A stretch of DNA of 64,000 bases, from NCBI RefSeq assembly GCF_006345805.1, contig NC_043004.1:87172001-87236000 (forward strand). The letters run 5' to 3'. Shown piece by piece: positions 3,365-53,209 of this stretch. Source of the stretch: Octopus sinensis (taxonomy: Eukaryota). The position numbers and the translations under genes were made by a program. Each line of letters opens with the position of its first letter. Position 1 is the stretch's first letter. The notes beneath the pieces were generated by a model that saw nothing but the letters and a program-made list of their open reading frames with translations, did not search any database and was not told where the DNA came from.

Positions 3365-3405
<41 letters not shown>

Positions 3406-5273: not shown

Positions 5274-5304
<31 letters not shown>

Positions 5305-19741: not shown

Positions 19742-20211
19742 TGTGTGTGTGTGTGTGTGTGTGTGTGTATTTAATTTTGGTTGAATCAGTCTCTGTGAGT
19801 GCACAGGGATACAGGCAAGTTGCCCTCACAACCATAGCTCAGCGTAGCAAGAGACTGACTGAACCAAAATGAAATATATTATTACATCCTACATTATTGT
19901 TTCATGTACTCTAACTGAAAGGTTTTTAAGGCCTTTCAATTTTATCACTAACTTGCAACCCTAAATTCAGAGACAGTTCTAATATTTCAACAGAGCTTAT
20001 AAATTGAAAAGAGGAGTAAAGTTGGGAAATTTACTGAAGACATCAGTTTCAGTAAACAAATGTATAGCATAACAGTTTTATCGGCAACATGTAGAATAAT
20101 TGAACTGTGGTAGTCATTGTTCCATTAAAATTATACAATGTCATATTCATTTTTATTTCATGATTATTAGTAATTATAACAGACATCTACATTTATAACC
20201 TGGTCACTCAC

Positions 20212-25825: not shown

Positions 25826-25856
<31 letters not shown>
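25290..25856. repeat. Long CT-rich polypyrimidine tract ending in (CT)n; possible promoter-proximal GA-repeat region
   Basis: Directly visible; lies just upstream of the candidate first exon. Confidence 0.85.
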
Positions 25857-25929
25857 AAAAAAAAATTAGTTTATGATATTAGCACAGCTGTTAGTACTGC
25901 TCATTATCCCATAATCCAAGTCATTGCTA

Positions 25930-26328
25930 TAGCAGTAGCAGCATTAGTAGCAGCAGCAGTAGTTCCAACTACAACAATAGTAGCAGATAACTTAAGAAGC
26001 AATAGCAGTAGTGGTAGCAGTACCAGTAGTAGCAAGTCATTGACAGCAGCTATGTGCCACCTCACTCTCTCTAACTTATGTTCTGCTGCTGTATGTGGGA
26101 TTTAAATATTTAGCTGCTAACACATAGAGACGCATATACAAATTGCTGTGTATAATATAATTACACACACATACGCACACTCACTCATACACATACGCAG
26201 TTTACCTTTTCTCTCTTTCTCCCTACCTTTTCTCTCCCACCCTCACTCTCCCATTTAATTTTTTTTTTGTTGTGGTGTTTGTGATTATATCCAACGTTGA
26301 ATCTGAAGGATTTTCATTCCCTCCTACG
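25930..26328 (+). promoter_or_regulatory. Candidate non-coding first exon (5'UTR) of Rab3; start approximate
   Basis: Strong donor CCTACG|GTAAGA (intron from 26329); preceded by (AGC/AGT)n, CA- and CT-rich low-complexity sequence typical of long 5'UTRs; TE-poor neighbourhood. Confidence 0.45.
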
Positions 26329-33982: not shown

Positions 33983-35247
33983 CAAAGTTATTCTATTGCT
34001 ACACTATATTTCTCATATCCACTTTTCACAATCTGTGTGAAGCAAGAAACTCAGAGTAGTAACAAAGATAAGCCTCATCTTCTGATAAACTACTAAACTC
34101 TATGACAAGTATTCAATCATAAAGAAAAAGTACTGAATACTTTTTCTTTCTGTGTGTAAATACAAATGCAAATAGAAGTATATGACACATTATAAACAGA
34201 ACTGATAAAGTTAGTAATGCCCACTCATCTATGGCACACCTTCTTTTAGTGTTAGCCTAGTGATTGCAAGATCAAATGGTCAAACCTTGCTACAAATGTT
34301 GTATTGTGCTCCTAAGCATAAAGCATCTTATACTTATCTATTTATTGAGTTTGTGTCTATATTTGAGGGATTTACACTTCAAATGGTATGAAACTTTCAT
34401 GTAAATATACATATTTTCAAAATGAAAAAAGCTACTCTGGACAGAGAGATTAAATGTATATTATCTTCAAAAATTAACAGAAATGCTTTGCCCTTATCTA
34501 TGGTACTGGTTTAAATGTCTTGCACTATCATGGACTTAGTATGGGAGAAAAATGTTTTTGTTTATTATTTGTGTTACTAGTGGACCACTTCCTTTTGCCA
34601 ATGAGTATGCAAAAAAGGTTGAGCTTTAATAGGTACAACATAGAAAAATAGAACTGTCACTATTTATATTTTGTTACTATTCTTTTCTCTTTATTTGTAT
34701 GCTAATTCTAATAATGACAATGGTGATGACAATTCTTCATATTAACACAATGTTTATAAATATAGTATAGTTCATTAGATTGACTACAATATGTTTGGGG
34801 CCCTGAAACAAGCTGAAGGTAAAATTGACCCTAGTGGCATTTGAATATAGACTGTAAAAGAATACAACAAAGGAACTGTAAAACATTTAGTCTGGCACAA
34901 ATTTGAAAGTTTCAAGTTTTGTGTATTGTTCACAATGTATACAAAACAATTCTGTCTGGGAATTAAAACTGAATTAACATTTATAAGAAGAAAATATGTC
35001 AAAAAGAAGTATTTCCTGCAGAATAGCTTTGCCTGATTAAGAATTGTAGAGTGCAAAGTAAAACTTTTAGATTATAGTTGAAGAATATAATCCAAGTGAC
35101 TGAATGAAGAGATACTGATGAAGGGATTCTGACTCGTAGCATTGGAGATTAGAATATTTATCATTGTTGTTCATCATCATGATTTCATTAATCTCTTCTG
35201 TTCTGTTATGGTTTAGAATGATTTGGAGTCTTAACTATTACTATAGC

Positions 35248-35297
<50 letters not shown>

Positions 35298-38200
35298 CAT
35301 TACATGATCTAGTACACTGTGATTTGAGCAAATATTAGATAGCTTTCTTAACATAAATTACACTAGGATGAGAGAAACACACACACACACACACATGATT
35401 AGAAATAGCAAAAAAGATAAGACATATTTAATGGAACAGTGAGATTTAGTTTGATGTTGTTGTTATGGTGGTAGTGTTGGTGAGGGTTAATGAGGAAGCT
35501 TACTCAAGTGAAAGTTTGACCTTGTATTTTTATGCTATGATTACATGAGTTTAGTTAGTATCACTAACCTGTGAATATGAGATATGTCATTCTACCATAC
35601 ATCGATTTGCAGAGAGAATAGACATACATTGTTTTGTTGTTTTTTATTTTTAATTAGTTTTTGTGATTTAACAGTTTTAGTTTTTAGAGCAAATGGTTCA
35701 GTAACCTTACACATGTTTCAGTGTGTCTGTCAGTTAATTTTTATTTTCTTTCTTTCCTTTTTTTTTATTAAATGAAGTGTTCAGTTGACATTCCATTTAC
35801 CAGTTCAAAAAAGAAAAATCTATCTTGTTTCCACTTCTATGTCAGCTGGGATATCTTAATTAAATAAAATCATGCTCATCCATTTCCTCTACTAATTAAT
35901 AATGGAAAACTTAAGTCATTGCACTCTTTTACACATGCTCTCTTTAACAATTTCCAACAACCTTATATGGAAATTCCATATAAGCCATATAACCAAAATA
36001 TTATTATAAAATATGTTGGATTCTATACCAAAAAACCTATTCAGTCCTTCTTCCTTCAGAACTGTTCCCCCTGAAATCCCTTCTGCCAGCATTTTCCTTG
36101 TAGCAGTAAAATGGTTGAAGTGATATAGTAATAGACTACCTGTTCGTAGATCTTTAATTGTTGCTGTTATTCAAGCCATCACTCACATACATATTGTATT
36201 CCGAGCTATATTAACTAATGTATTTTTCAATATGATAGATTTAGTTTAAGGGAGATTTAGTTATTTCTAGCAGGTCAACTGACCTTGTAGAGGTTCATTT
36301 GCTGGCTCAGAGGTATTAAGTTTAAATCCTTCACATGCTTATTGTATGTATTAAGATACTACTTTACATGCTTCAGTTCAATGAGCTTTCAAAGAGTAAG
36401 AACTAGGATCATCTGAGAAAGATTTATTTATCATCCACTTAAAATAAGAGCTAAGCACCAGCTCTTTGATCTTTGAATAGCTACATAATAACCATAAATT
36501 ATCAGTATCAAACTGTAAGTTGACTTCTCTAAACCTACCCAGTTATCTCTATATTCCACTTTAGGAAGGTTTAAACTAAGAAACACTGCTGTACCTTGTC
36601 AAATTAATCAATAGAAAAGATTACTTTTATCTACAAGAAAAGCTGTCTACTTGATAAGCAAATACACTCAGGCATACTCCTCCAAATATTGACCAATGTA
36701 CACCAACCCACTTTCTATCTTCCTACAGTTACAATGAGCCAACACTGAATGGTCCCTTGACTTACCAAATCTTCAAATCACACCTTATCATCTTAGAAAA
36801 AAAGAACACTTTGGATAGTGTGGTCCTATGAAAAAGACAGTGATTATGGTTGATCGTAGCTCTGCTCAGTTAGAGCTGACCTGGAGTTAAACAGCTATTA
36901 CCTTTGATTTACTCCTTTAAATTTGTTACTAACTCTTGGCATTTCTATTTAAGCCTCTCTCTAGACATTACATTCTCTTCTTACTGTATCTCCCCAATGA
37001 CAAACCTTTTAACTAAATACACCCAATCTTCTACTCTCCAGAATTGCATTTTGCTGGAATTCACTCACTGTCAAAATATTCTCACCAACTTCCTATTTTG
37101 CAATGAGTTACATTGAACCAAGTTATATTAGTCTTATCTACTGCTTCCAGTTTTCCTATCTAGGAGAATGGCTTTCGATTTATATAAATAATCTTTTGCT
37201 CCATAAGATATTAAAAAAACATTATCATTGAGTGTCAGAAAATTTTATTTGTTATTTTTTCTGAAGAAAAAGATATTGATGTGTTGATATTTCATTGATC
37301 TTCAGTGAGTCAGACATTTGGTTTCTAGATTAAAGCTGACCTTATTTAAAAGTAAAATAGAATTGAATTCTGAATAAAACAAAGGTGGCCAGCCCATTCA
37401 GTATCAAAGGTTTGACCTACCAAAGGAAATATAAAACCATGAAGATTTTTTAATAGTTCAACCTATATGAGTCACTGTGTATATATACACTCCTACATAC
37501 AGAAGGCAAACAGTCAATTTTAATGATTCACAATGTACTGTTAATTTCATTCTTAACATGTCATATATTCTCTTATTTAAGGAAAAGTTTTTTTTATTTT
37601 TTTTTTTTTTCCTGAACATTATCAAGATCAATATGTTTGACACTTGTCAAAGCAAAGAAAATAAATTGAGCCCAACTTAGTTTTAAATGCTTATATTGGG
37701 ACTGCAATATCAGAGTAGTAGATTATTGGACATATAAGACTTTTCTGTTATAAGTTGCAAGATAATCCTTTGTTATTAATTAACTAGTTCTGTTATTTTA
37801 AACAACAGTGTTATAGATATATTTTTGTTATTTAGTATTTCGATTTGATTCAATATTTATTTTGATTTTTATGCAATATTATTACATTGGAAACATTTTC
37901 TGTAATTCTGAACATGGCTACCTAAAACAACTATCTTGTATGATAATAAGCATTTGACTTTAGCAAGGTTCTGCTCAACATAATTTAGTTAAAAGTAGTT
38001 GATAGGATATGCCATCAATATGTAATAATCTTCAATATATTCTAGCCATTTATAATGTTTGCTGATTCATGCCTGTGTCTGAATATTGTGCAGAAGATCT
38101 GATCAGTGGTGCCATTTGTTTGTGTCCCATTCTTCATTATACATTAAATAGGTTTCTTTGTTTTCACCACCAATACTACTATGAAGCTTACTCTCAAGCC

Positions 38201-39427
38201 TTTACTATGAATGTTGTTGGAAATATTCTGCTTGAGTTAGAACTTACTTAGGTTTGTCATAAGGCCAGAGTTTATTTCAGTTTCCATGGCATATGAGTGA
38301 CTGAGATTACCACACTCCCTGCTGAACAAGATAGTAGTAGTCTGTAACAGGGTTAACTTCCCAGCTATTGCAGAATGGACTTGAGCAATGTGAAATGGAG
38401 TTCTTCAAGAACACAACTCACCACCCAGTCTGGGAATTGAAATCATGATCATGCAGTTGTGAGTGCTGCATCCTAAACATTAGGCCATACACCTTCACTT
38501 GAGTTAGAACACCAGAGTATAATTAATGCTTGCTACCACAGTATTAGTGTCATCAACAAACTGGAGTACTGACAGGAATGAATATTAGCAAGGACAAATT
38601 TGTAGTGTTGCAACTCACACATGCAGGAAGAAGTCTTTATTGTTTTGTGCGGATGTTTGTTACTGGATCATGAACTCCATTAAATTATTTATTGACTAGT
38701 CCATTTCAGATCTTTAGATGACCAGAAACTGAGTCAGGATCATTGCCCATACATGGCCTGTATCACTTCAATAATTACACTTGTTAATGACATCTTGCCT
38801 CATGAACAACTGGCCAGACTAAATGTTTTCTTTGACTTTTCTTATGTGCTTTCTCATGATCAAAACGTCTATCTTTTTGACCAATAGAGAGAGAGAAACT
38901 TTTTCTCATGGCCACACTACTGACAGTGTCTATTTTTCACTTACTAACCACCATACATATTGATGTTGTTTATATCATATACAAATTTACAAGGGTTTTT
39001 TTTTTCATTTTGTAATGTCCTCTATTCTTTCTTGTTTCTTGACAAAGAAAAGAAATATTTCTTTCTTCCATTACACTTTCATCTTGTTCTAAATTATATA
39101 AATTTTGCTTCCTGTCAATGTACGGACCAGCATAAAAGACGCAATCAATTGAATACATTAGTAAATAGATCAATTAGCATAATTTATGAATTGAATTTTT
39201 CATATCTTATGAGTATATTTTCAATTACAATGATGTAGTTTTACACTAACATTCTGAGTTAAATTTAATCCAAAAAGAACTTACCTCTGAATTGTTTGAG
39301 TGTGACAACTTCATAAAGAACTGAGAAGTTTTTGGATGTTTATGCCTGTGGTAGAATGCTTTCCTTTAGCTTTCTCCTTGTTAACCAATTAGAGTGATTC
39401 CTGAACAACCCCACCCTTCATTTGTAG

Positions 39428-39588
39428 TGTAGCACTGCTGCTGTTGATGTTACCAGCCTGTGTCACCTTTAGTCTAGCAGTTTCCTCCAACAACAACAAC
39501 AACACAGATTTGCATCTCCATCCACACCACGGGCTCCATCTCTCACTAGAAATTTTATCACTTTTCGAGAATGGAAGTCTATAAAATG
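39428..39588 (+). other. Candidate alternative upstream exon of Rab3 ending in the short ORF MEVYKM
   Basis: Donor AAAATG|GTGAGT (intron from 39589). ATG GAA GTC TAT AAA ATG (39571-39588) is phase 0, so in frame with the Rab3 exon; in-frame TAG upstream at 39547; possible acceptor TTCATTTGTAG at 39427, or a first exon. Confidence 0.5.
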
Positions 39589-40668
39589 GTGAGTCTCTGC
39601 TCTAGTTATTTGTTTGATATTTTATGGTGATGTTGTGCTGTTTTTAAAGTAACCTCTGTTATGCCTTCATACCTTTCAAGAATGCTTGATACACTTTTTA
39701 TTTTTATTTTTTAGTTATTTGTTTGTTTTATTTTCCTCATTTTTGAAATTCTATGGCTTATCAGCAGTAATCTTTTCTATCTTAGTATGTTTTATTTTTC
39801 TAATAGAATTAACCCTGATGGCTAGTAGCTTTATCATATCTGTGTCTCTTTACTATTACATTTTATTTTTATTTTCAACAGTCCATAAAATAATACTGCA
39901 ACCCTTTCTTTTTATCTTTATTAAAACTGTCCTTTAGCTTATAAATTAAAGTTAGCATCTTATTTGGAATGGTTCTCATACAGTTCATGATATATAACTA
40001 CATTCCTGTCATAGCTCATCAAATTGGATAGCGACCCATGCCAGCATGGAAGGCAGACGTTAAGCAACGATGATGTTTATTCTTTAAGAGTTCTTCATAA
40101 GTTCCTATATATTAATGTTGTATACACCCCCTCCTTTCCCTTTAGAAATTTTAAGTTTATATCACAAAGACAATACTCCCAATTTGTGTTACATAGGTTT
40201 CCCAAACATGTCTATTCATTTTCTGAAACATTTTATTGTCGCTGTATGCTATTGGCTTCAAACTTTACAAACATTTCAAAATTATGTTGCTATAGTCATT
40301 GAACTTACATAACATCTATATTAAGTTACATATTCTACTACTGTTTTTATAACTCTGGTTAACTCTCATAAACTATTTTAAATCAATTACAGCCCTATCT
40401 ATGTTTTCCAGTTCAGCTGTGCTCTCATTTCTACACTCTCCAATTGAATGTACAGTCATCCATAATCTTTGGTCAAACTGTGTTCTCTTTGCTACTTTCT
40501 ATCTCTCTCTCTATTTGAGTTGTAATGCTACATTTATACTATTTATAGTGTTATTTTAAATTTCATATATATTTGTATCCTATTTTCTTCAGTCTGTTGA
40601 GATTACACTTCCAAATTTTTAAGTTATATATCAGATTGTGCTCCTTTAAACGAATTTCTTCTCAGACT

Positions 40669-40845
40669 GTTCCTTTATGCATGTTAACTATCCAACTATT
40701 CCTTTTTGCATGTTGTTTATCCCAATGTGCCTTTCTGCATGTTAGTTATCCCAATGTGCCTTTCTGCATGTTGATTATCCAGCTGTTCCTTTATGTATGT
40801 TACTTAACCCATTCTTATTTTCTGCATGTTAATTGTCTCACCTAC
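40669..40845 (+). repeat. 29-bp degenerate minisatellite (~6 units) with conserved TGCATG core
   Basis: TGCATG at 40678, 40707, 40736, 40765 and 40823, plus TGTATG at 40794: exact 29-bp period. Confidence 0.92.
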
Positions 40846-41122
40846 TGATTATCTTCCTGTATATAAGTCGTTTATTGTCTTTTCCACAAACCAGTTGTTG
40901 TATTGTAAGCTTATTTTTTGCATGCCAGATTTAAATTGTTGTGTATTTTGGTTTTGGTTTTTCTTAATTTATTTTGCATGTTGGTTTTCAGTTTACACTC
41001 TATGCATACCCATTTTTAAAGTTTAAAAAAAATATATTCTACTTACTCTGTTCTTTAATTTCTGCATGATATTCACTAAATTTCTGGTAGAGTTGTTTCT
41101 GTTTGTCAAAGTTGTTTTGTAG

Positions 41123-41153
41123 AATCCCCCCTAGTTAAGATACCCACTTACTG
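41123..41153 (+). other. Candidate 31-nt microexon in the Rab3 5' region
   Basis: GTTGTTTTGTAG|AATCCCCCCTAGTTAAGATACCCACTTACTG|GTGAGT; branch-like CACTAAA at ~41074; U/UG-rich upstream tract. Confidence 0.5.
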
Positions 41154-41861
41154 GTGAGTACCTGTATGTAGTGAAGTTAATGTAGCATCATAGATTGACA
41201 AATGCAAATCTTGACATGCAAATGTGTCAGAATCAAGTCTTGGATCTAATGGTAATGCTGACTTGGACAGTTTGGATCAGCCGTACTTTATCATCTCCAA
41301 GCCTGGATTCAGCACTGAAATCTAACAAAATATACTCATTCTACAGTGCTTGTGCTCCTCATATTTACAGTGCTAGTATTGGAATTTGAAATATTGAGCT
41401 TTTAAGCCAATCCCCTATCAACACAACCATTTGTAATTCTCTTAGAATTAATATACGGCTTTTTACAACTTTAATTTGTTGTTTTGAAATCAGAGTAGAA
41501 ATGGCATTGAACTATAAACAGTATTATTTTAAATTTAACTTACAATGAAAGTAAACAAAGTTTGCTTTAGAAGCGTTGAGATATATTGAAAGATACAGAA
41601 ATAATTTATTCTCAAACGATTTTTTTCTGAAATATATGGATAGTTTATCCTGTTCATGCTATTATATTAACATTATCATGTGTTTGAGAATAAATAATTT
41701 CTGTATCTTTCAATATTCTTTTAATATTTGTAACTTGTTAACAGCAAATTCATTACAAATTTTACTATGTTGAGTCTTCATTTTAAAAAGAATTCCTAAT
41801 AGCAGTAATCAGGTTAGATCTATATATCTTTAACTATTAAGAAAATGATCTCAAGAGTTTA

Positions 41862-41897
<36 letters not shown>

Positions 41898-42698
41898 TGT
41901 GTTCACATCTTAGTATGATACTGAATGATTCATCTGAAAAATTAAGATTTTCACATCTTGTAACATATTTTAAAGTGACACTATTAAGCCACCATAGTAC
42001 ATAACCATCACAAAAATAAATTTATTCAACATTTTGCAGTTGTGGCATATCAAAGCTGAAATGTTGAATACATTACCTTTGTAGCATTTTGTTTATCTGA
42101 AAAATATAGGCTTAAACCTCATACATTGATTGAATTAATGACCAAGAATTGAAAATTGAAAGTTTCATCAACAAATGACTTCAATTTTTAAGAGAACAAA
42201 AAATGATTTGAATAAACTGTTTCCATCTGTGACACATCACATCAAAGCATTAGAATAATGCCATGAAAAACAGACAGTGTCTTTCAAGTTTAATGTAATT
42301 GTAACCATAACCATATATTTTACAAAGGTGAATGCTTATAATGCCTAAAACGTGCCAAGAAGAGGAAACTTTACAAACAGATTCAAACGGATTCAAATGA
42401 ACAAGTTAAAGAACAATTTAAAACTCTTTGATTATGGTTATCTTTTAAAATCCAATGTGAGAGAAAAATAGTTTCATTTCCTCCTAGTTTTAGCTGTGTG
42501 TGTGTGTGTGTGTGTATAAGTAGAGATATAAATACACATATGTACATGTACACAAGTTGGAAACAGGTAAGAGTTGGTGAAAAGAAAGGCAGCCAGTCAT
42601 AGAAAATATGCTTCAACAAATCTTAGTCATTTATCTTTTATTTGTTTCTGTCACTGGACTTCGGCCAAGCTTGGGCACCACCTTGAAGGGTTTTAGTT

Positions 42699-42935
42699 CA
42701 GTGATTCTCAACCGAGGTCCACATGACCCTTGGGGGTTCATATAATATTTTCTTATTAAAGTTTATGGGCAATAAATTGGTTATTCTTCTACACTACACA
42801 AAATATTTTGACAATGTTCTAATACAATTCCTAATAATATTTTATTATTAAAATGTAATGGGATGCTTTTTAAACATCAAATTGCAATGGAGGAGGTCCA
42901 GTAGCGTAAATTAAAAGTCAAAGGGGTCCATAGGC
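42699..42935. mobile_element. hAT-like non-autonomous element fragment inserted in a SINE
   Basis: Starts CAGTGATTCTCAACCG (hAT/Charlie-type terminus) with GGGGTCCA subterminal motifs at both ends; right TIR not clearly retained; SINE sequence on both sides (42630-42698, 42950-43090). Confidence 0.5.
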
Positions 42936-43159
42936 AATGAAGTGGAACTTTTAATGGAACAAATCAACCTCAGTACTTATTTATTTTTTAAGTGTGGTAC
43001 TTACTCTATTGGTCATTTTTGCCAAAGTGCTAAGTTACAGGGACACAAACAAACTAATGGCTGTCAAGTAGTGGTGGGAGACAAACACAACACACACACA
43101 CACTATATATATAATAATACTAATAATAATAAACATTGTGTACAGTGCTCAGGTGCACT

Positions 43160-43243
<84 letters not shown>

Positions 43244-43404
43244 CAGATGCCTTTCTCCATGTAGTCGGGTTGGGGGTGCTGTTAGAACAGTGGGATATTT
43301 TCCTACTTTTCTTAACATGAGGCCAATGGTGGCCTTAATTCACAAATAAAGAAATTATATCCACCAACACGGTGTTGAATGCTCATTTTCATCATTCATA
43401 ATAT

Positions 43405-43449
<45 letters not shown>

Positions 43450-43454
43450 TATGT

Positions 43455-43610
43455 GTGGGTGTGTGGTAAGAACCTTACTTCCCAACCACATGGTACTGGG
43501 GTCAGTCCACTGCGTGGCACTTTGGGCAAGTGTCTTCTACTATAGTTTCAGGCTGACCAAAGCCTTGTGAGTGGATTTGGTAGACGGAAACCAAAAGCAG
43601 TCCAACGTGT
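43455..43610 (+). mobile_element. tRNA-headed SINE 5' half, followed by an inverted partial copy (43670-43778)
   Basis: GTGTGGTAAGAA..TTACTTCCCAACCACATGG..GGG.TCAGTCC.CTGCGTGGCAC.TTGGGCAAGTGTCTTCTAC..GGATTTGGTAGACGGAAAC. Confidence 0.8.
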
Positions 43611-44342
43611 ATATATGTATATGTTTGTGTGTGTGTATGTGTGTGTGTGTGCATGTGTGTATAATGGATGTCTTTCAGTTTCTGTTTACCAAATCCATTT
43701 ACAAAACTTTAGTAAGTCTGGTGCTATTGTAAAAAGCACTTGCCAAAGGTGTCACACAGTGGGACTGAACCCAAGACCTATATATATATATATACACACA
43801 CACATATACATATGTTCATATATATATTGATTTTAATGAATTTACAGTGACTTAAAATGTTAGCAGTAATTGGCTGTGTCACACTGCGAGGTCTGTCCAT
43901 TTCTATGCATGGGCTCATCATATGGGTTGATGATTTCATTGAAATGTATGCATGATTTACAAAGTAGAAATATCTGAAGTAATAAAATATTGAATTGAGT
44001 TGAGAAGTAGAAATGATTCTTAACTTGCACTGGAGTACTTGAGTAAGGTTGATAAGCCTTTGCCAAATTTTCCATGTGAAAGCAAATATTATAATCTACT
44101 TAAATATTTATTAATAACACTTTTAGTTAATGCTTGATTATGAAGGGCTATACTTAAAGAAACATATATATATATATATCTAATATAGGATATTTTCGAA
44201 AATAGATTTTATCAAAGGCCAGCATATTAAAAAATACCTTTAAAGGTTAAATTTATAAGCAACTTATAAACAAGGGCAAAAGAAAAAATTTTCTAATGCC
44301 AAATATGCCGAAACTAGACACAACGTCCATAACCATATAAGT

Positions 44343-44377
<35 letters not shown>

Positions 44378-44559
44378 AAGTTTATTATTATAGAAGATAA
44401 AGATAAGCATCAATCAATATTTTCATCTCTCAAAGAAGTTGAGACTCCAGGTCTTTTTGAAAGCTCTAGCATTGAAATACACATAACAAATTATAAAACC
44501 TATGAGCAAGACAGAGAACAAATGCATGTATAAAAGCCCAGTAGAGTTTATAATGGAGA

Positions 44560-44592
<33 letters not shown>

Positions 44593-44965
44593 AAACTGAT
44601 ATGATTGTCACTGTGCCTCCTTTTTCCTGTTTGTCTATCTCTGATTCTCCATTTAATGAAAGGAACTTTTGGCTGCTAAAATACTTTCGGTACATCAGTA
44701 ATTCATTAGAACATTGTTAATTAACTGCATAGTGATAAGATTATGCATTGTGAGTTTAGATATCCATCTGTAACTTGCATAGAATTATTTAATTCTATGT
44801 AGATTTAACTTTTTAATTAAATGATAAAGAGGAACAATGATGGCATATTTTATTCAATTAAGCCCTCTTGATACAGTTTGTCACAAGTTATTAATTATAA
44901 AATTAAATATTTATAAACAACGTTATTTTTCTTAAGTAGAAATTTCTATCACTATCAAGATATCT

Positions 44966-44996
<31 letters not shown>

Positions 44997-45073
44997 AGTC
45001 AATTTGGCAATCAATCATGCACATACACATTGATAGATATTATATATAAATTTATTTCTGTATGTGTATGTAT

Positions 45074-45122
<49 letters not shown>

Positions 45123-45159
45123 TCATCGGTAAATTATAAATCTGAAAGAGCTATAACTT

Positions 45160-45258
<99 letters not shown>

Positions 45259-45556
45259 TATATATATAGTTATAATTTTCTTTCGAAACACATAGACAGC
45301 ATAGAAGTGCTCAAGTCAAGCTTGAAGTGTTAGGATTACAATAGAAAAAGTTCAAATCAGGAAAACTACAGTTAACACATATATATATATATATATAGAT
45401 ATAGAGAGAGAGAGAGAGAGAGAGAGGTTTAATTAAGATAAAATAAGAATTGTCCAAGCTGAAACATGTATTGATATATTAGAGATATAAAGATATATGA
45501 ATACTAAAAATATTCATGGACATATAAATATATGAAGATATATATATATATATGGA

Positions 45557-46060
45557 CAGGTGCCATAATGGCTGCATGATTAAAAAGCTCACTCCCTAAT
45601 CACATGGCTTGATCAGTCCTGCTGTGCAGCACTTTGAGCAAATGTCTTCTATGATAGCCACAGGCCCACTGAAATATTAGAAAACCCCTTTGTGTGTGTG
45701 TGTATGTAGTGGGAGTGGTATTTATATATGTATATATTTATGAGTATATGTATTGAAATATATGTACATGTATATGTACAGAAACTGTTAAGCTTCTGGT
45801 GTTCGTGTATGCATATATGTCTGTGGATGTTTGTGCTTGTGTGTGTGTATACCCTTGTCTTGATATCACATGATGGTTGTAAATGAATACCAACGTCATG
45901 CAGGCAATGTTGTTTATTTCCAGTCTTCCATGAGAAATGTATCTGACTTTTGCAAATGTTACCTTGCTTGGAAACAGGTGCATCCAACTATAGACAATAT
46001 GCCTCAGCAAATTCCATCTGACCCATGTAAGCATGAATAAGTGGACATTAGACAAGATGA
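45557..46060 (+). mobile_element. tRNA-headed SINE with RTE-like tail and expanded internal microsatellite
   Basis: Homologous head (GAGCAAATGTCTTCT.TGATAGCC) and tail (TTGCTTGGAAACAGG..AAATTCCATCTGACCCATG.AAGCATG..GGACATTA). Confidence 0.75.
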
Positions 46061-46310
46061 AATCTTTATATATAAATCCATGAAACAGAATAAGAACATG
46101 ACGAATGACAATTAAAACATACGGACAGAAAGATGATACAAAGACGGACATGAAAAACCAGAACAGATCCTTCATGGCTTTCTTTTCATCAGTCAAGTTT
46201 CCAATTATCATTACAGTTTCAGCCTGTTACATTTGAAACTGTTCAAAATTGGTAGGCCCCAAAAATCTACGCTAACAGCATTAACTTTCTGGAAGAAAGC
46301 AAGCACATGT

Positions 46311-46738
46311 GTAAAACAGGCAAACAACTGGTATCAAGTTAGATTATGACATTTATACCTTTAAACATGACGGTTGAGTTGTTAAAGGAGTATAGATCAT
46401 AAGGAGAAAGGAAATAAATAGGTGTGCAGAAAGTCTCTAACAGCTGTTTCAAGAACAGATGCACAGATTATGCATCTTGTGCAAATAAATGCTAGCTATC
46501 CATATAACAGCAGTCTATTCCATTACTGAAAGGAGATTTGAGATATAGCAGAGGATGATGGAATAGATCACTGCTGCTGTTTGTTTTAGACAAGGTGCAT
46601 CTATTCTTGAAATAGCTGTAAGAGACTGTCTGCACACATTATTACTTCCTTATCATCTGTACTCATGTAACAACTTAACTGTCATATTTAAAGATATGTC
46701 ATAATCTTATCTGATACCAGTTGTCTGCTTGTTTATAC
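46311..46738. repeat. Fold-back element with ~150-bp arms carrying hammerhead 3' halves
   Basis: AAACAGGCAAACAACTGGTATCA..GATTATGACAT..GTGTGCAGAAAGTCTCTAACAGCTGTTTCAAGAACAGATGCAC (to 46464) is mirrored by GTGCATCTATTCTTGAAATAGCTGTAAGAGAC..TGCACAC..ATGTCATAATC..TGATACCAGTTGTCTGCTTGTTT (from 46595); additional inner IR TCTATTCCAT/ATGGAATAGA. Confidence 0.9.
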
Positions 46739-46959
46739 TTTTATTCTGTTGTGTAGGTACCTGCTCAGTTGATAAACTTTTTTATAGCTAATTGTCATAA
46801 GGCAGTTATAACATCCCTGCTTTTAGCTGCAGTTTAAATTAGAGTCATAGGCAGCAAGTCAACCTTGAGTATTAACTGTATGTAACTATTTTTATGTCAT
46901 CAGACATGATATTACTTGAATTCTATCTTTATGTATTATGTATTCTTCATGATGGTACA

Positions 46960-47890
46960 AAACAGAAGAGAGCTAAGGATCCAACTCGGATAGATCCCAA
47001 CCTACTCACTTAATTCATTGTTAACTCTCACCTTGTTAACTGCCTTTACAAACATAGTTTCACAACCTTATTAGCCATTCTTCTACTAGCTTCTTTTGTG
47101 CCCACTAGATGACAGAGCAAAGGAGTCTGCTAATGATATTTTTCAGATCTGCAAATGCTAGGCATAGAGGCTTATTTCTAGCTAAATATTTCTCTGGCAT
47201 TTATCTCACTAGGAAGATGACATCAGTGATTCTTCATGGTGATACAAAACAAAACTGTGTCCCTTGTAGGTTAATCTTACTTCAGATCAACTTTGCTATA
47301 ATTCCTTCACCTTTATATCAGTTTACAATAATCATTTCTATTATAGGCACAAGGCCTGAAATTTGTGGGGAGGGGGTAAGCCAATTATATTAATCCCCAG
47401 TGTGTAACTGGTACTTATTTAATCGATCCAATAATGCTGCTATGTCAGCCACTAGATATGAAACTCTTTTATTACCTGATTAACTCTTTGAGTGACTAAA
47501 CCATACCCTTCTTCACCAGATATTTTGAGCATCTGTGACTGTTTCCCTTTGGCTAGCTATTTTCCCTGCTTTCATATCCTTAACACCCTATCCATCTTGT
47601 CTACTTGAGTGGATGGTCCCTGTCGTGAGTCTTCTTGGGACAGACTCCCTCCCTCTCATGTGTTCTCCACGTTCAACAGCCCCTCATAGTTGCACCTCCA
47701 TAGCCTTTCTTTTCAGTGTCATTGAGAGTAAGTGTGCCATTATCATTTTGCTTACAGTTCTCCCTGATGATATCTTATTTCACTTTAGTACATTATTTCA
47801 ATATTCTGAACATCTTGTGCTGCTGATCCTCATACTGCAAAACATGAACAATCTTCTTTCTTTCTACTTCTCCCTCTGCCTAAATGTATT
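46960..47890 (-). mobile_element. Old RTE LINE RT fragment interrupted by a SINE piece
   Basis: Minus strand gives EKYLARNKPLCLAFADL-like sequence at ~47140-47195, homologous to QEKYLAKDKPLYLAFVDM of the young copy. Confidence 0.75.
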
Positions 47891-47907
47891 TGCTGTCTAA
47901 CCTCACC

Positions 47908-47913
47908 TGTATG

Positions 47914-47964
<51 letters not shown>

Positions 47965-48180
47965 ATGTGTATGCGTATATGTATGTATATGTATATATGT
48001 ATATGTGTGTATGTATATATGTATGTGTATGTATGTGTGTATGTATATATGTGTATGTGTGTGTATACGTATGTATGTGTGTGTGTATGTATATATGTGA
48101 GTGCATATGTATGTATATGTGTGTGTATATGTATCTATATGTGTATGTAAATGTATGTATATATATGTATATATATATAT
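47908..48180. repeat. (TA)n/(TATG)n/(TG)n compound microsatellite
   Basis: Directly visible. Confidence 0.95.
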
Positions 48181-48568
48181 TTACTTTGAGCCCTCAGTTT
48201 CTTTGTGGAATCATAAGAGTGGCCTCATCACATATAACGTGTCTTGGGTATATTTAGACTTGGCAAAGTCTAACCCACTCTAGGTTTGATGATAGTCAAT
48301 TTTTTCCAGAAGAGAGAAAGTCACACAGACAGAAAGAAAGTGAGAGAAAGAGAAGTGCTTTTGTCATGAACAAAAATATAAAAGCAATTTAAGAGCAGAT
48401 GCTAACTACAGATCCATTAGATAGAAGGTCAGCTGCTTATCACCCTTGCTTTTAATGTTGTGGTCATTGTTTAACCTTAGATCTGCTTTGGTCAAGCAAA
48501 GTCATGTTCAAAGGTGCTCCAGTCATTACTACATTGTGTCCATCATTTCTTTAAAACAGTCAACTATA

Positions 48569-48750
48569 TGCAACTATGAAGGGCTGTTGTGCAACTATGA
48601 AGGGCTGTTGTGCAACTATGAGGGGCTGTTGAATGTGGAGAAAACATGGGAGAGAGGGAATCTGTCCCGAGTACTCATGACAGGGACCAGCCACTCAAGA
48701 AAAGATGGATAGGGTGTTAAGGATATGGAAGCAGGGAAAATAGCTGGTCA
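48569..48750 (+). repeat. 21-bp triple tandem repeat leading into an inverted copy of RTE fragment 47551-47695
   Basis: TGCAACTATGA(A/G)GGGCTGTTG x3 (48569-48631); 48611-48750 is the diverged reverse complement of 47551-47695. Confidence 0.85.
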
Positions 48751-51193
48751 GAAGGATTTGGCTGATATTTCTTGCAGGTTGAGCAACTTTTAAGAGGCTC
48801 ATTTGTTGGATCTACATTCAATATATTTTGGTTTGCCTTATCATTCATTTGAATATACTCTTTTACTCTTTCTCTTGCTTCAGTCTTTCAAAATACAGCT
48901 CTGCTGAGCCACCAACAGAATTGCTTCAGATTCTGGAATCAGAGGCTTTTTTAAATTTTTTTATTTTAATGAAAACATGGTGATCTAATTGTTTTGTGAA
49001 ATCATATATTGTAATATATTACCAGTTCTCAGTCAAACCATCCGACCCATGCCAGCATGGAAAATGGACGTTAAATGATGATGATGATGAGGTTGAGTTA
49101 TATCAATGTTAATGCTTTGTAAATAATCTAATTTTAGCTACAGGTAATGATTTTAAGGCTGTAGAAACCTGCACTGGTGATCAAAAATGTACCTACATCC
49201 CATATTTGATGGCATAAAAGACTTACAAGCATATTAGACACACCCTAATTTCAGCGGCACATATTCAGAAAAAAAGGCTTTTAGTACATTAAAACTTATG
49301 GAGGCTCAAATTCACAAATAAGACCGGGGGGGGGGGTCTGAAGAAGTGTGTCTTATATGTCTTCAAAAACAGTACTTGTTCAGAAGTTCATTTTCCCTCA
49401 CATATAGGTTTTCAGGTTCTAATTTGTTCAAAATATGATAATCTGAAGAATTGTGAGCAAATATTTTCTTTAAAAAGAAAAGACATTCAAACATGAAATA
49501 GCGTTGTTGTTGGTGAATTTGAACCAAGTTTGTAAATCAATAAAAACAACAGTTGGCAATTTGTTAAAACCACTCCTTGAATTATTTAGGAAATTTGTTC
49601 CATACATTGTCATTCAAACTTTATATACCTAATCTTTGATTTGTTGAACTATCATAGTAGTTTATATTCAAGTGAGCATCTTTGTTTTTAATATTAAACA
49701 ACCAAAATAAAATATGATGGATTGTTCAGACCACAGAGTATTGATCTAAGTCCTTGTCAGCTTTATCCCTCTTTGTTCCTACTTCAAATTCCACCATAGT
49801 TTAACTTGCCTTTTACTTTTCCAGAGCCAGTATTTTATCAAGAATCAATTTTATCAATCATACTTCCAGCACTAGAAAAATTTCTGTTGTACGTCATCAA
49901 AATATATTAAAAAATTTTAAATCCAAATAAAAGGTGTTTTAAATAACATTCTATTTTTTCAATATTTTAATACAACCTGCAGTCACAATTGTATAAAATA
50001 TAGAGAACAGTGGCTTTCAAGTTAGAAAAGTAAAAGGCATAGAACTGTTTATATCAATCTTATAGAAGCTATCTTCAGTGAACATAACACAAAGTTGGGT
50101 TTTGAGGGAGGTGGTGGGGGTATACAGTACTAGCTACTCAAATAATGGGTTCATTGATTTTTCAGGCTTTTTTTTTTATTGTCTTGATTTAGTAGTTTTC
50201 AAAAATAAACTTGATTACAAAATAGCACACTGTGAACTTTATTACCTTCCAGGTAGAGTTTGATTACTTAACCTAATAAAGTCTCTTATAACAGGATTAT
50301 CTCAAGGAATCCATAGGCTATTAAAAGATTAATTTTCAACAACCAAATTCCCTCACTATAATTCATTATATTATTATCTTAACCAAAATGTACTAAAGTT
50401 TAAAAATGGATTAATCACACTTTCTTGCTTGGTTATTTAAATAAAGGGTCACAGTGTTAAATAAACTTAGCTATGAAGTGTTAAATTGATCTGATTGTAT
50501 TCGATTAGGATCAGCAGATTGTTGAGGATAGTTGGCAATACTAAATTATTAATGAGTAGAAAATGTAATCCATTTTTGATACCTAAAATTCTTTTTAATG
50601 AGTAATTATTATTATTGATAACAGAAAAAATTCTGTAGTTACTAAAATTAATCTGTTCCATTTTGAAGTAAAACTCACATTTTGATCAAGTTAGCCCTTG
50701 TTCATTATCATGTCACATAAGTACATGTTGATTAGTTCTGTTGCACCAGGCTCCAACTGTTTGTTTTGGCAAGGTTTCTATGACTGGATGCACTTCCTAA
50801 TAATGCCAACCACTTTGCTGAATGTACTGGGTGCTTTTTACATGGAGCCAGTACATAAATAGATCTGTAAATACATTAACCAATGTATTCTTTGTTTTAA
50901 GATGGAAGGATATAATTTGAGTTAGATTGGCTGCTAGTTCTTGCTGATGAAGCAACTATGTAGGAGCTTCATCTTTGGACTATATGCATATATATATATA
51001 TATATATATATATAATTGAAAAATAGGATAAAATCTTTATAAGAATTTATCAAGTAGTAAGGGAAAAATACATCAATTTATTCCTCTTAACTATATTTAT
51101 TTATATTAAGGGCATTACTATACATAAATGCCTCACGCTAGGAGGGATGCTTAAAGTCAAAACTACCATAATAAATAAACAGTATTGCCCTTA

Positions 51194-51228
<35 letters not shown>

Positions 51229-52984
51229 TGTATATAAAACAAATATATGTATTTGTGGTACCTGATGACAAACAAATTAAACTGCTGAACTGACACTTAT
51301 TGAGCATCCACAGTTGGAGCAGTAATTCAGACAAGTGAAAACCTGTGTCTTCTGCAGGGCCAGCATGACTTCTTCTTTTCTTTGTTCTGGATGTTTCAGG
51401 ATCCAATCTGCCTGTTGTCTGTATGTTACTATCTTAGTAATATATGTGTTAAAGGATATATGTACACATATGCACATATATATATATGCAGATATAAATA
51501 CACACACAGACACACATATTAGATTAGTTTCCTCATCTTAGTTATTATAGTCACAAAGTTTTGGCTGATGTGCCCTTCCAGCCTTTCTTCAAGTGCTTGT
51601 TGCATACAGTAACATTAAGAGAATTTCAGACTAAGCCCTTTACTCAGACTTTTTATGCTATCAGTTAATGTAAAAAATAAACACATCTCTTTCAGAACTT
51701 TCTTTTAATAAAACTGTACCGGCATTGCTCAATACTGCAATGAACTATTCATATTAATTACTTGTCATTTTTAAAATAAATTTTGTTGAATTTTTAAAAA
51801 ATTTTCTATCTGTCAAGGAAATTTTTGCCAGAGAAATTGTTAACACCTGTTCCATAATTTAGTACAAATTCAAACTGTTATTTAGAACCGTCTGAGTTAT
51901 CCTTTTGAATTGGTTTATTATAAACTAGCTTATCTGGACTGTATCTTACTGCACATGTCAAGCAAAATTATTTCTCAACTAGACACTGCAATACACCAAT
52001 ATCTGATAAAAAGATTATTCTGCAGCCTTAGAATTATTTTGACAATATATATATATAACTAATGATCAAGGTTAAGGGTGTAACATTCAAACTTTTCACT
52101 AAATATAGTAAATCTTCCTCTTATCTGAATGAAAAGCTCTTAACTTTTCTGTGTAGGTCACTGATCATTATTTATTCTCAACATTAAACCTATTTGTCCT
52201 CCTGCTTGGCTGTCAGAATCCAACTTTGAGAATATTCATGTGAAGGAGTATTATTTTTCAATTCTTTCAATTTTTCTTTTCAATTTAGTTCAGAACACTG
52301 AACATATCATTATATTCTGAACAAGGTTTAGACCTCATTAGGTATCTCAAGCCAAAAATATAGAATAAGGATTTTTTTAAAGTTTTTTTTTTTTTTCAAA
52401 ATGTAATAGAATGGCTAGATATCTTTAGAATCTTTAGAATGAGCTCTGTTTTAGTTTGGTAACTAAAAGCTTCATAAAACAGTTAATTTTTCCCATCTAT
52501 TTTAGTAATCGTGATAGCCAATGGAAGATATTTTCTGAATGGTCAATAAATTGATATGGCAACAGTAATAAAGAATATTAGCATGATTGTATACTCTCTC
52601 TTAAGTGCATCCGATTATCATTGTTATTATAACTATAGTCACCATGACTATTATTATTAGAACCACCACAAGGAACAATGAATGGTAGACTAAATGCCTT
52701 GAATTGTTTAATTACATTTTTTTTTTTTCATTCTATGTTTTAAAATCTTCTTTTCAGCTTCTAGGATTTATAAAGTAATTATCTGTAATGTACCAGTAAT
52801 TATAGAATGTTTTGTCAACTATAACCCTATCTACAAATTGGTGACCTTGTGCCAAAGTTATAAAAGCATATTATACTTACCACTAACAAATTTAATTGTT
52901 GTGATGGCCAGTTGTTGACATTAATTTTACCAAAATCTAAGTTGTACAAATTTCATTAATTATCAATTACCACTTTCCTTGCAG

Positions 52985-53209
52985 ATGGCATCAGCAAATG
53001 ACTCCAAGTGGCAAAAAGATGCAGCAGACCAGAACTTTGACTACATGTTCAAATTGCTCATTATTGGCAACAGTAGTGTTGGAAAAACTTCCTTTTTATT
53101 CCGATATGCTGATGACTCGTTCACATCTGCTTTTGTAAGCACAGTTGGAATAGATTTTAAAGTCAAGACAGTCTTCAGACAAGATAAACGGGTAAAGCTA
53201 CAGATATGG
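52985..53209 (+). CDS. Rab3: Ras-related protein Rab-3, first coding exon (aa 1-75); remaining exons lie beyond the window
   Basis: [75 protein letters not shown]: Rab3-diagnostic P-loop GNSSVGKT and switch [10 protein letters not shown]. Acceptor CACTTTCCTTGCAG directly before ATG; phase-0 donor TGG|GTGAGT. Confidence 0.98.

What the first reader, a model, noticed from the sequence alone, without database searches (positions are those of the whole stretch)
40669..41160. Eight TGCATG (RBFOX-type) sites upstream of a candidate Rab3 microexon
Seen: TGCATG at 40678, 40707, 40736, 40765, 40823 (29-bp phased array whose other positions have diverged), then 40919, 40975 and 41063 outside the array, all in U-rich context on the Rab3 sense strand and ending ~55 nt before a clean AG/GTGAGT-bounded 31-nt exon. 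Known: UGCAUG is the RBFOX element; upstream binding usually represses inclusion; Rab3 is a synaptic vesicle GTPase. Inference: a minisatellite co-opted as a multivalent splicing-regulatory array.
Basis: partly seen in the sequence, partly recalled or inferred. Interest (0 to 1): 0.72.

Follow-up and report, generated by a model that had tools for sequence, protein, structure and literature searches.

The report
UGCAUG repeat cluster in Rab3 intron
A 29-base tandem repeat plus three nearby sites puts eight UGCAUG motifs into an intron of a Rab3 gene, about 1.1 kb downstream of an annotated alternative 5' coding exon; the cluster is predicted to bind the splicing factor RBFOX, but any regulatory effect is untested and the proposed 31-base microexon has no support.

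Summary
All eight TGCATG lie where stated, on the Rab3 sense strand. Five belong to a locus-specific 29-bp minisatellite (40666-40834). A 31-nt AG/GTGAGT-bounded segment follows 54 nt after the last motif.

The cluster is intronic in Rab3 pre-mRNA. The proposed microexon lies 11.8 kb upstream of the common ATG exon (52985-53209). It has a stop in every frame, a weak acceptor and no RNA support, although the RNA test had little power.

The tools also showed that octopus RefSeq Rab-3 isoforms differ only in short N-terminal peptides: MRQDALLK-, MDSNL- and MEVYKM-. MEVYKM is encoded at 39571-39588, followed directly by GTGAGT. The cluster therefore sits 1.09-1.48 kb downstream of a real alternative 5' exon (39428-39588).

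The three motifs outside the array are more than chance: 0 of 20,000 shuffles reach three, and the empirical clump rate is about 8e-4. They are not detectable eroded repeat units.

Best reading (0.42): a deep-intronic UGCAUG cluster of the kind described for mouse Ntrk2, predicted to recruit RBFOX and to favour the MEVYKM exon. A neutral minisatellite is nearly as likely (0.38). Interest is modest.

The parts
40666..40834 (+). 29-bp minisatellite, 5.8 copies; unit consensus carries CCTTTnTGCATGTT..TTATCC. It supplies TGCATG at 40678, 40707, 40736, 40765 and 40823; the fifth copy reads TGTATG at 40794.
   Evidence: TRF; copies in register; the repeat finder D1. The unit is unique to this locus in the 2.7-Gb genome: 4 of 6 pattern hits are the array itself, the other 2 have one mismatch each, and the reversed-pattern control gives 2. 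The region 40640-41180 is single copy.
40919..40924 (+). TGCATG outside the array (TTTTTTGCATGCC)
   Evidence: flank identity to the unit is 9 of 23 against a background of 6.4 +/- 2.1
40975..40980 (+). TGCATG outside the array, ending 10 nt before the AG at 40990-40991. It shares 16 of 18 nt with array copy 2.
   Evidence: (D2)
41063..41068 (+). TGCATG outside the array. It shares 15 of 17 nt with array copy 6.
   Evidence: D8
41123..41153 (+). The donor CTG|GTGAGT at 41154 is strong and the acceptor is weak. Stops in all frames; no RNA support.
40992..41153 (+). Alternative 162-nt exon model using the better acceptor ttggttttcag| at 40991. It is noncoding, has two upstream ATGs and has no RNA support.
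39428..39588 (+). Alternative 5' exon of Rab3. It ends ...ATGGAAGTCTATAAAATG|GTGAGT, which encodes MEVYKM in frame with the common exon. The 5' boundary at the AG of 39426-39427 is inferred; the exon could also be a first exon that starts nearby.
   Evidence: The peptide of RefSeq isoform P0124 maps exactly to 39571-39588, followed by GTGAGT. Acceptor 4.6 and donor 6.0 bits. Single copy.
39589..52984 (+). 13,396-nt intron between the MEVYKM exon and the common exon. It contains the cluster 1,090-1,480 nt from its 5' end.
   Evidence: arithmetic on coordinates
52985..53209 (+). Common first coding exon of Rab3 (75 codons, [10 protein letters not shown]...QIW). The ATG directly follows the acceptor AG.
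   Evidence: Best solved-structure match is 4rkf_A Rab-3, E 1e-42. Pfam Ras, E 4.6e-15.

Best explanation
This is a deep-intronic cluster of eight UGCAUG motifs in Rab3 pre-mRNA, five of them made by a locus-specific 29-bp minisatellite, and it is predicted to recruit RBFOX and would then most likely favour use of the alternative 5' exon encoding MEVYKM that ends 1.09 kb upstream.

Shown:
- the motifs, the array and its uniqueness in the genome;
- the sense-strand orientation of all eight motifs;
- the position of the cluster inside the 13.4-kb intron between the MEVYKM exon (39428-39588) and the common ATG exon (52985-53209);
- two further alternative 5' coding exons, MDSNL and MRQDALLK, which lie 126 kb and 269 kb upstream of the common exon on the same strand, so the whole region is transcribed as intron in those isoforms too.

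Inferred:
- that the octopus RBFOX homologue binds these sites, as Fox-1 proteins from nematodes to mammals bind (U)GCAUG;
- that many adjacent sites raise the local RBFOX concentration, as proposed for the Ntrk2 clusters;
- that binding downstream of an exon promotes its use, and so shifts Rab3 towards the MEVYKM N-terminus in RBFOX-rich neurons.

The 31-nt 'microexon' is likely not an exon. If the strong donor at 41154 is ever used, it would add only untranslated sequence.
For: Anatomy: eight TGCATG in 391 nt, all on the sense strand. This meets the published operational definition of a (T)GCATG cluster, four or more within 500 nt. It also matches the 7-9 motifs in about 300 nt of the two functional Ntrk2 clusters (PMC12435732, sections 7-8).

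Location in the gene:
- MEVYKM of RefSeq isoform P0124 maps to 39571-39588, followed by GTGAGT.
- MRQDALLK has a single genome hit at C8:86955874, with reversed-pattern control 0/0.
- MDSNL lies in L016, followed by GT.

Motif-specific enrichment beyond the tandem array:
- Three extra sites lie in the 326 nt downstream. 0 of 20,000 shuffles reach three. The empirical clump rate is 8.2e-4.
- Of the 29 hexamers of the unit, only TGCATG and TTTCTG recur three times there. Equally conserved unit words such as TTATCC, CCTTTC and TTCCTT recur 0 times.
- With the hexamers masked, the flank shows no homology to the unit (P 0.83 and 0.59) and no 29-nt periodicity.

Accessibility: the RNA is not unusually structured (z +0.69; 75 of 100 shuffles fold at least as well).

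Trans factor: RBFOX3-like transcripts are reported in an octopus transcriptome (PMC5736919, one passage). The Fox-1 RRM and its GCAUG specificity are conserved across metazoans, multiple copies act more strongly, downstream sites activate, and the NMHC-B N30 repeats act from about 1.5 kb (PMC2777236, abstract and passages).
Against: - There is no binding data, no cross-species alignment and no usable RNA evidence.
- Five of the eight sites are one recent tandem duplication; copies 3 and 4 differ at 3 of 29 positions. They are not independent evidence of selection.
- Within the array the hexamer (1 mismatch in 36 cells) is not uniquely conserved. Columns 13-20, TGCATGTT, are one block. The Fisher P of 0.016 is post hoc and the copies are related by descent.
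- Two outer sites share 15-16 of 17-18 nt with array copies. They may be relics or short local duplications rather than selected sites.
- The context is U-rich (27 poly-U pentamers against 12.2 +/- 8.7). GU-rich pentamers are not clearly enriched (21 against 11.4 +/- 11). Mammalian clusters are GU-rich and poly-U-poor (PMC12435732, section 12).
- 1.1-1.5 kb is outside the usual proximal window.
- If the MEVYKM exon is a first exon with its own promoter, cassette-exon logic does not apply.
- The other two alternative 5' exons show no comparable cluster in the downstream sequence held: about 1.5 kb after the MRQDALLK exon and 3.3 kb after the MDSNL exon.
Confidence: 0.42

Rival explanations
1. 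Neutral minisatellite. Replication slippage or unequal exchange amplified a 29-bp intronic unit that happened to contain TGCATG. The three outer sites are relics or chance. The RNA is spliced out with the intron and has no effect on Rab3 expression, whether or not RBFOX touches it.
For: - The array has the plain anatomy of a minisatellite, with 58- and 87-bp higher-order periods.
- Conservation is spread over most of the unit, not just the hexamer.
- Two outer sites resemble array copies over 17-18 nt.
- This AT-rich, repeat-rich DNA clumps hexamers about five times more than Poisson predicts.
- Window-wide TGCATG is not enriched.
- In mouse about 21,000 such clusters exist, and only about a fifth of CLIP-positive genes have a peak on one (PMC12435732, section 8).
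- No RNA or conservation evidence for function was obtained.
Against: - Three extra intact hexamers lie in 326 nt that otherwise show no homology to the unit. This is unlikely at about 1e-3 under either chance or uniform erosion.
- All eight motifs are on the sense strand.
- The cluster lies next to a real alternative exon and to one of the three strongest donor matches in 64 kb.
Confidence: 0.38
2. The array is an upstream RBFOX repressor of a cassette exon ending at 41153, either 31 nt from 41123 or 162 nt from 40992. The exon would be included only where RBFOX is low.
For: - The donor CTG|GTGAGT scores 7.1 bits, and only 3 of 3662 GTs on the strand score as high.
- The acceptor at 40991 scores 3.3, close to the real Rab3 acceptor at 3.8.
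- For the 162-nt model, one UGCAUG ends 10 nt before the acceptor AG and one is exonic. This is the arrangement described for repressed exons such as CGRP exon 4 and CaV1.2 exon 9* (PMC2777236, passages).
Against: - The acceptor at 41122 scores -4.5 (71st percentile) and has an AG 12 nt upstream.
- The segment cannot code in any frame and lies in the 5' untranslated part, so it is not a microexon in the usual sense.
- It appears in none of the three octopus N-terminal isoforms seen.
- Depth over 40581-41520 was 0 in two contig sets, 0.74 in one bin of a third, and about one or two reads in the raw run. No joint with an end at 40991, 41122 or 41153 was among the 15 shown; 86 were not shown.
Confidence: 0.05
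3. DNA-level element. The repeat is an intronic enhancer or part of an alternative promoter, with the unit read by a transcription factor. Three sites read TTTTGCAT, a 7-of-8 match to the complement of the octamer ATGCAAAT (motif recalled, not from a call).
For: - The cluster lies 1.1 kb downstream of an alternative 5' exon and possible promoter.
- An A/T-rich TATA-like stretch and a strong donor follow within about 100 nt.
- Repeated units are common in enhancers (general knowledge).
Against: - There is no perfect octamer.
- There is no CpG or GC signature: 2 CpG in 700 nt.
- There is no transcript start or exon evidence at 41050-41153 (weak).
- The uniform sense orientation of the three independent sites is not required for a DNA element.
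Confidence: 0.06

Closest known systems
Deep-intronic (T)GCATG clusters flanking the TrkB.T1 exon of mouse Ntrk2 (Tomassoni-Ardori et al. 2025, PMC12435732; abstract and sections 7, 8, 12 read)
   Same: Many canonical RBFOX motifs packed into a few hundred nucleotides: 9 and 7 in about 300 nt there, 8 in 391 nt here. They are far from splice sites, in an intron of a neuronal gene that makes alternative isoforms. This cluster meets their definition of four or more motifs within 500 nt.
   Different: Their clusters sit about 25 kb from the exon, are embedded in GU-rich and (TG/CA)n sequence, and are poor in poly-U. Here the context is U-rich and GU pentamers are not clearly enriched. Theirs are backed by eCLIP and deletion experiments; here nothing is tested. 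Here most sites come from one 29-bp minisatellite.
UGCAUG repeats downstream of fibronectin EIIIB and of the NMHC-B N30 exon (as summarised in Kuroyanagi 2009, PMC2777236; passages read)
   Same: Repeated UGCAUG in the intron downstream of an alternative exon; the N30 repeats lie about 1.5 kb downstream. More copies give a stronger effect, and the downstream position activates.
   Different: Those repeats are evolutionarily conserved and were tested in minigenes. They regulate internal coding cassette exons, not a 5' exon that carries its own start codon.
Upstream or exonic (U)GCAUG repression, as at F1-gamma exon 9, CGRP exon 4 and CaV1.2 exon 9* (PMC2777236; passages read)
   Different: No exon is shown to exist at 41123-41153 or 40992-41153.
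Ordinary intronic minisatellite (VNTR)
   Same: Head-to-tail 29-bp units at 77% identity, with higher-order periods, unique to the locus, in AT-rich intronic DNA.
   Different: The unit carries a high-affinity splicing-factor motif on the sense strand. Extra copies of that motif lie outside the array.
Neuronal microexons (SRRM4-dependent programme; recalled, and PMC8797185 seen in a search listing only)
   Same: Short length and a neuronal gene.
   Different: Microexons are coding and frame-preserving. This segment is 31 nt, untranslatable in all frames and upstream of the start codon.

Membership tests
(T)GCATG cluster sensu PMC12435732 | At least four (T)GCATG within 500 nt | tested here: met
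   8 TGCATG (which are also all 8 GCATG) between 40678 and 41068
(T)GCATG cluster sensu PMC12435732 | Lies in an intron, on the sense strand of an alternatively spliced gene | tested here: met
   It lies between the MEVYKM exon (39428-39588) and the common exon 52985-53209, on the same strand. Three N-terminal isoforms are known.
(T)GCATG cluster sensu PMC12435732 | Embedded in LASR-type sequence: GU-rich pentamers and (TG/CA)n enriched, poly-U depleted | tested here: not met
   GU-rich 21 against 11.4 +/- 11 (13.7% of windows reach it). Poly-U 27 against 12.2 +/- 8.7, which is enriched, not depleted. Poly-G 0.
(T)GCATG cluster sensu PMC12435732 | RBFOX CLIP peak on the cluster, and loss of RBFOX-dependent isoform regulation when it is deleted | not testable with these tools
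   No CLIP data or experiment is available.
Conserved intronic RBFOX splicing enhancer (EIIIB / N30 type) | Motifs conserved between species more than their flanks | not testable with these tools
   No related animal genome is held (one search states none).
Conserved intronic RBFOX splicing enhancer (EIIIB / N30 type) | Downstream of a regulated alternative exon | tested here: inconclusive
   It lies 1,090-1,480 nt downstream of the annotated MEVYKM exon. Whether that exon is an internal cassette or a first exon is not known.
Neuronal coding microexon | Very short exon that preserves the reading frame within the coding sequence | tested here: not met
   31 nt. Stops in frames 0 and 1, and TG|A at the junction in frame 2. 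It lies 11,831 nt upstream of the ATG exon.
Neuronal coding microexon | Spliced reads that use both of its splice sites | tested here: inconclusive
   None were seen in 4 runs.
Minisatellite | Tandem head-to-tail copies of a 10-100 bp unit | tested here: met
   Period 29, 5.8 copies, 77% matches, 0 indels
Rab3 subfamily (host gene) | N-terminal exon most similar to Rab3 rather than to other Rabs | tested here: met
   The nine best solved-structure matches are Rab3 entries (E 1e-42 to 8e-31), counting 1zbd_A, which the depositors name RABPHILIN-3A; the next, Rab10, is at 3e-21. Over this exon the peptide is identical to named mollusc Rab-3 proteins and to the octopus Rab-3 sequences.

The most novel reading that the evidence does not exclude
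A lineage-specific minisatellite has been co-opted as a multivalent RBFOX landing pad. In octopus neurons it switches the synaptic-vesicle GTPase Rab3 from its ancient MRQDxLxx N-terminus, shared with bivalves, gastropods and a brachiopod, to an octopus-type MEVYKM N-terminus, by activating the 5' exon 1.1 kb upstream.
Probability: 0.18. Interest if true: 0.55.

Novelty: new member of a known kind. Interest (0 to 1): 0.33.

Why it matters
If the cluster is functional, it would be a dated, lineage-specific example of a tandem repeat creating a high-valency RBFOX site. It would also be a first handle on how cephalopods choose among the alternative N-termini of a core synaptic-vesicle protein. 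The Rab3 N-terminus lies next to the effector-binding surface (recalled from the Rab3A-rabphilin structure, not tested here). If it is neutral, the lesson is practical. UGCAUG clusters are common (about 21,000 in mouse, PMC12435732), and a motif array beside an AG...GTGAGT pair is not evidence of a regulated exon. Either way, the useful product of this check is the gene structure. Three alternative 5' coding exons lie 269 kb, 126 kb and 13.4 kb upstream of the common exon. That tells anyone with octopus RNA-seq which junctions to count.

Tried and rejected
RNA evidence.
- No listed holder of the Rab3 exon is on record as RNA. The runs used are guessed RNA contig sets plus one raw RNA run.
- The second lay (34001-48080; X1, X13, X4, X24) put almost only dispersed repeats on the stretch.
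- Over 40581-41520 the depth was 0/0/0.74/0 and 0/0/0/0.41.
- No joint at the candidate splice sites was among the 15 shown; 86 were not shown.
- The annotated MEVYKM exon was not clearly covered either. Depth in its bin comes at least partly from contigs that touch only the (CAA)n run at 39487-39504.
- The tool warns that human-like records are dropped. The lay therefore neither supports nor excludes any exon here.

Searches that found nothing useful.
- Fox-1_C (PF12414) in the own genome gave no match, and the control rang nowhere, so this is uninformative.
- Rfam gave nothing in 40000-41500 and nothing at gathering score in 38000-44000.
- Earlier findings of the scan held nothing relevant.
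- CpG and GC profiles found no promoter; only a degraded LINE stands out.
- Pfam on 87 open frames of at least 55 aa (low-complexity frames left out) between 20164 and 52915 found no family, so no other gene was detected there.
- The N-terminal extension of the Logan protein P0020 did not map to the window; by its C-terminus it is probably a decapodiform sequence.

Hypotheses tested.
- Eroded-copy hypothesis for the outer sites: gapless flank identity is 9-10 of 23 against 6.4 +/- 2.1. Local alignment scores are 15-21 against a shuffle 95% point of 16 and 99% point of 20. Homology with the hexamers masked gives P 0.83 and 0.59. Whole-unit homology is not demonstrable; only 17-18-nt core matches are seen.
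- RNA structure: none beyond shuffles.
- Dispersed-repeat or transposon origin of the array: rejected.

Literature.
- 'Rbfox'+'Rab3'+'UGCAUG': 4 papers, none about Rab3 splicing (listing only).
- 'microexon'+'cephalopod': 2 papers, not relevant (listing only).
- 'GCAUG'+'cephalopod': 0 papers.

The splice-site scores come from crude matrices typed from recalled consensus frequencies. They are used for ranking only.

Full report
OBSERVATION

- Tandem Repeats Finder reports a 29-bp array at 40666-40834 with 5.8 copies, 77% matches and no indels. It also reports 58- and 87-bp higher-order periods.
- Written in register, the six copies carry the hexamer in columns 13-18. The fifth copy reads TGTATG.
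- The 31-nt segment 41123-41153 is preceded by AG and followed by GTGAGT. It begins 54 nt after the last motif.
- The stretch is T-rich: 45.9% T against 34.5% for the window.

IS IT MORE THAN CHANCE?

Over the window TGCATG is not enriched. There are 47 on both strands against 49.5 +/- 7.6 in shuffles, 27 on + and 20 on -. Locally the cluster is unique. It has eight in 400 nt, against at most three in any 400 nt of ten further 10-kb stretches taken upstream.

Five of the eight are one tandem duplication. Copies 3 and 4 differ at only 3 of 29 positions. The independent evidence is therefore the three sites in the 326 nt downstream of the array.
- 0 of 20,000 dinucleotide-preserving shuffles reach three, and Poisson gives P = 1.4e-4.
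- This DNA is cryptically repetitive, so I calibrated on 1,581 comparable hexamers in the same window. The empirical rate of three or more in 326 nt is 8.2e-4, about five times the Poisson rate.
- Of the 29 hexamers of the repeat unit, only TGCATG and the overlapping T-rich TTTCTG recur three times in that flank. Equally conserved unit words (TTATCC, CCTTTC, TTCCTT) recur 0 times. The upstream flank has no TGCATG.
- With the hexamers masked, the flank shows no homology to the unit (P 0.83 and 0.59) and no 29-nt periodicity.
- The repeat finder does link two outer sites to array copies over 17-18 nt, with 16/18 and 15/17 matches. They may be relics or short local duplications of the core.

Inside the array the hexamer has 1 mismatch in 36 cells, against 24 in 138 elsewhere (one-sided Fisher P = 0.016). 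This is post hoc. The conserved block is TGCATGTT together with CCTTT and TTATCC, and the copies are related by descent.

WHAT THE ARRAY IS NOT

- It is not a dispersed repeat. The 541-nt region has one hit in the 2.72-Gb genome. A 22-nt pattern of the unit finds the array four times, two single 1-mismatch hits elsewhere, and two hits for the reversed control.
- It matches no Rfam family.
- As RNA it folds no better than shuffles (z +0.69).
- The open frames across it have no Pfam match.

WHERE IT LIES IN THE GENE

The only Rab3 coding exon in the window is 52985-53209. Its ATG directly follows the acceptor AG. It encodes 75 residues. The nine best solved-structure matches are Rab3 entries (4rkf_A, E 1e-42).

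The finding therefore lies 11.8 kb upstream of the start codon. The RNA lays did not reveal the 5' exons, so I looked at proteins instead.
- A search with the exon and the members of the cluster of P0020 gave three RefSeq Rab-3 isoforms named for Octopus bimaculoides and O. sinensis.
- They differ only before [16 protein letters not shown]- (227 aa), MEVYKM- (225 aa) and MDSNL- (224 aa).
- MEVYKM is encoded at window 39571-39588 and is followed at once by GTGAGT. It ends a unique, exon-like segment that begins after a good acceptor at 39427. An in-frame TAG lies upstream, at 39547-39549, read directly.
- MDSNL, with a CACCATGG start context and a following GT, lies 126 kb upstream of the common exon.
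- The back-translated MRQDALLK+GT pattern has one hit in the genome, on the same contig and strand, 269 kb upstream.
- The MRQD-type N-terminus is shared with bivalves, gastropods and a brachiopod.

Rab3 here therefore has at least three alternative 5' coding exons that all join the acceptor at 52984. The UGCAUG cluster is intronic in all three isoforms. It sits 1,090-1,480 nt downstream of the MEVYKM exon, in a 13,396-nt intron.

THE PROPOSED MICROEXON

- On crude position matrices (typed from recalled consensus frequencies and used only for ranking), the donor at 41154 scores 7.1 bits. Only 3 of 3,662 GTs on the strand score as high.
- The acceptor at 41122 scores -4.5, the 71st percentile of 3,540 AGs, and has another AG 12 nt upstream.
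- The AG at 40990-40991 is better, at 3.3. The real Rab3 acceptor scores 3.8.
- Neither the 31-nt nor the 162-nt model can code. The 31-mer has stops in two frames and forms TGA with the first base of the next exon in the third frame. The 162-mer has stops in all frames and two upstream ATGs. It would be 5'-untranslated sequence, not a microexon in the accepted sense.

RNA EVIDENCE

- No listed holder of the Rab3 exon is on record as RNA. I used three contig sets guessed to be RNA that hold the exon's words, and one raw RNA run.
The second, on 34001-48080, laid mostly dispersed repeats.
- Depth over 40581-41520 was 0 in X1 and X13, 0.74 in one bin of X4, and about one or two reads in X24.
- No joint at 40991, 41122 or 41153 was among the 15 shown; 86 were not shown.
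- The lay did not clearly show the annotated MEVYKM exon either, and the tool warns that human-like records are dropped.

This negative result carries little weight.

HOW IT MOST LIKELY WORKS

Fox-1/RBFOX proteins bind (U)GCAUG with a conserved RRM from nematodes to mammals. They activate exons from downstream sites and repress them from upstream sites, and they act more strongly with more copies. The NMHC-B N30 repeats work from about 1.5 kb downstream (PMC2777236, abstract and passages). An RBFOX3-like transcript is reported in an octopus transcriptome (PMC5736919, one passage).

Tight deep-intronic clusters of 7-9 motifs in about 300 nt are necessary for RBFOX regulation of Ntrk2 isoforms. 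Such clusters, defined as four or more motifs within 500 nt, number about 21,000 in mouse (PMC12435732, sections 7, 8, 12). The present cluster meets that definition but differs in context. It is U-rich, and GU-rich pentamers are not clearly enriched.

I therefore read it as a new member of that kind. It is predicted to bind RBFOX on Rab3 pre-mRNA and, being downstream of the MEVYKM exon, to favour that exon (0.42). A neutral minisatellite without effect is almost as likely (0.38).

VERDICT

The motif cluster is mildly non-random beyond the tandem repeat. The microexon is unsupported. The useful new facts are the gene structure and the neighbouring real alternative exon. The cluster is an untested candidate for a known kind of regulatory element, not a new kind, so interest is modest.

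Noticed in passing
window 39428-39588; G000:C8:87098680-87098694 (L016:6680-6694); G000:C8:86955874-86955897 (L019:1501-1524): Rab3 has three alternative 5' coding exons (MEVYKM, MDSNL, MRQDALLK) at 13.4, 126 and 269 kb upstream of the common exon. Each has its own ATG in a good start context and ends in phase 0. The MRQD-type N-terminus is shared with bivalves, gastropods and a brachiopod; MEVYKM and MDSNL were seen only in the octopus entries.
   Followed up: yes
window 52985-53209: The 75-residue peptide of the common exon is 100% identical in many gastropod, bivalve, brachiopod and cuttlefish Rab-3 proteins, which is extreme conservation. That may be why conserved Rab3 records were filtered out of the read lay.
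   Followed up: partly
window 14600-16600 (+) and 19150-19830 (-): A GC-rich island (41-48% GC) that is a degraded non-LTR retroelement. RVT_1 matches at 15435-15803 and 15826-16116, with stops between them. A related fragment lies on the other strand, with a weak PHD-like match.
   Followed up: partly
window 3297-4344 and 5198-6245: A direct duplication about 1.9 kb apart. The open frames 3670-3963 / 5571-5864 and 3967-4341 / 5868-6242 are identical. No Pfam family.
   Followed up: no
window 43507-43591 and 47327-47426: Short dispersed repeats (SINE-like) with very high depth in all four RNA runs, and loose ends that share consensus sequences. The same element tail occurs at L019:2660-2700.
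   Followed up: no
window 41583-41617 / 41682-41716: An inverted repeat of 35 nt, 97% complementary, with a 64-nt loop. It lies about 430 nt downstream of the candidate donor. The bin has moderate depth in the runs, with fixed differences, so it is probably a member of a repeat family such as a MITE or hairpin element.
   Followed up: no
window 25280-25860 and 25880-26110: A 580-nt CT-rich tract (GC skew -0.51), followed by a (GCA/AGC)-rich stretch and a possible donor ACG|GTAAGA at 26329. I first suspected a 5' exon or promoter here, but found no evidence.
   Followed up: partly
window 40015-40080, 48984-49112, 17741-17800: The same short repeat tail, which translates as ...DPCQHG.(Q/W)TL.(N)DDD..., occurs at three places in the window. 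The copy at 39841-40176 is well covered by contigs that carry a shared G>A at 40064.
   Followed up: no
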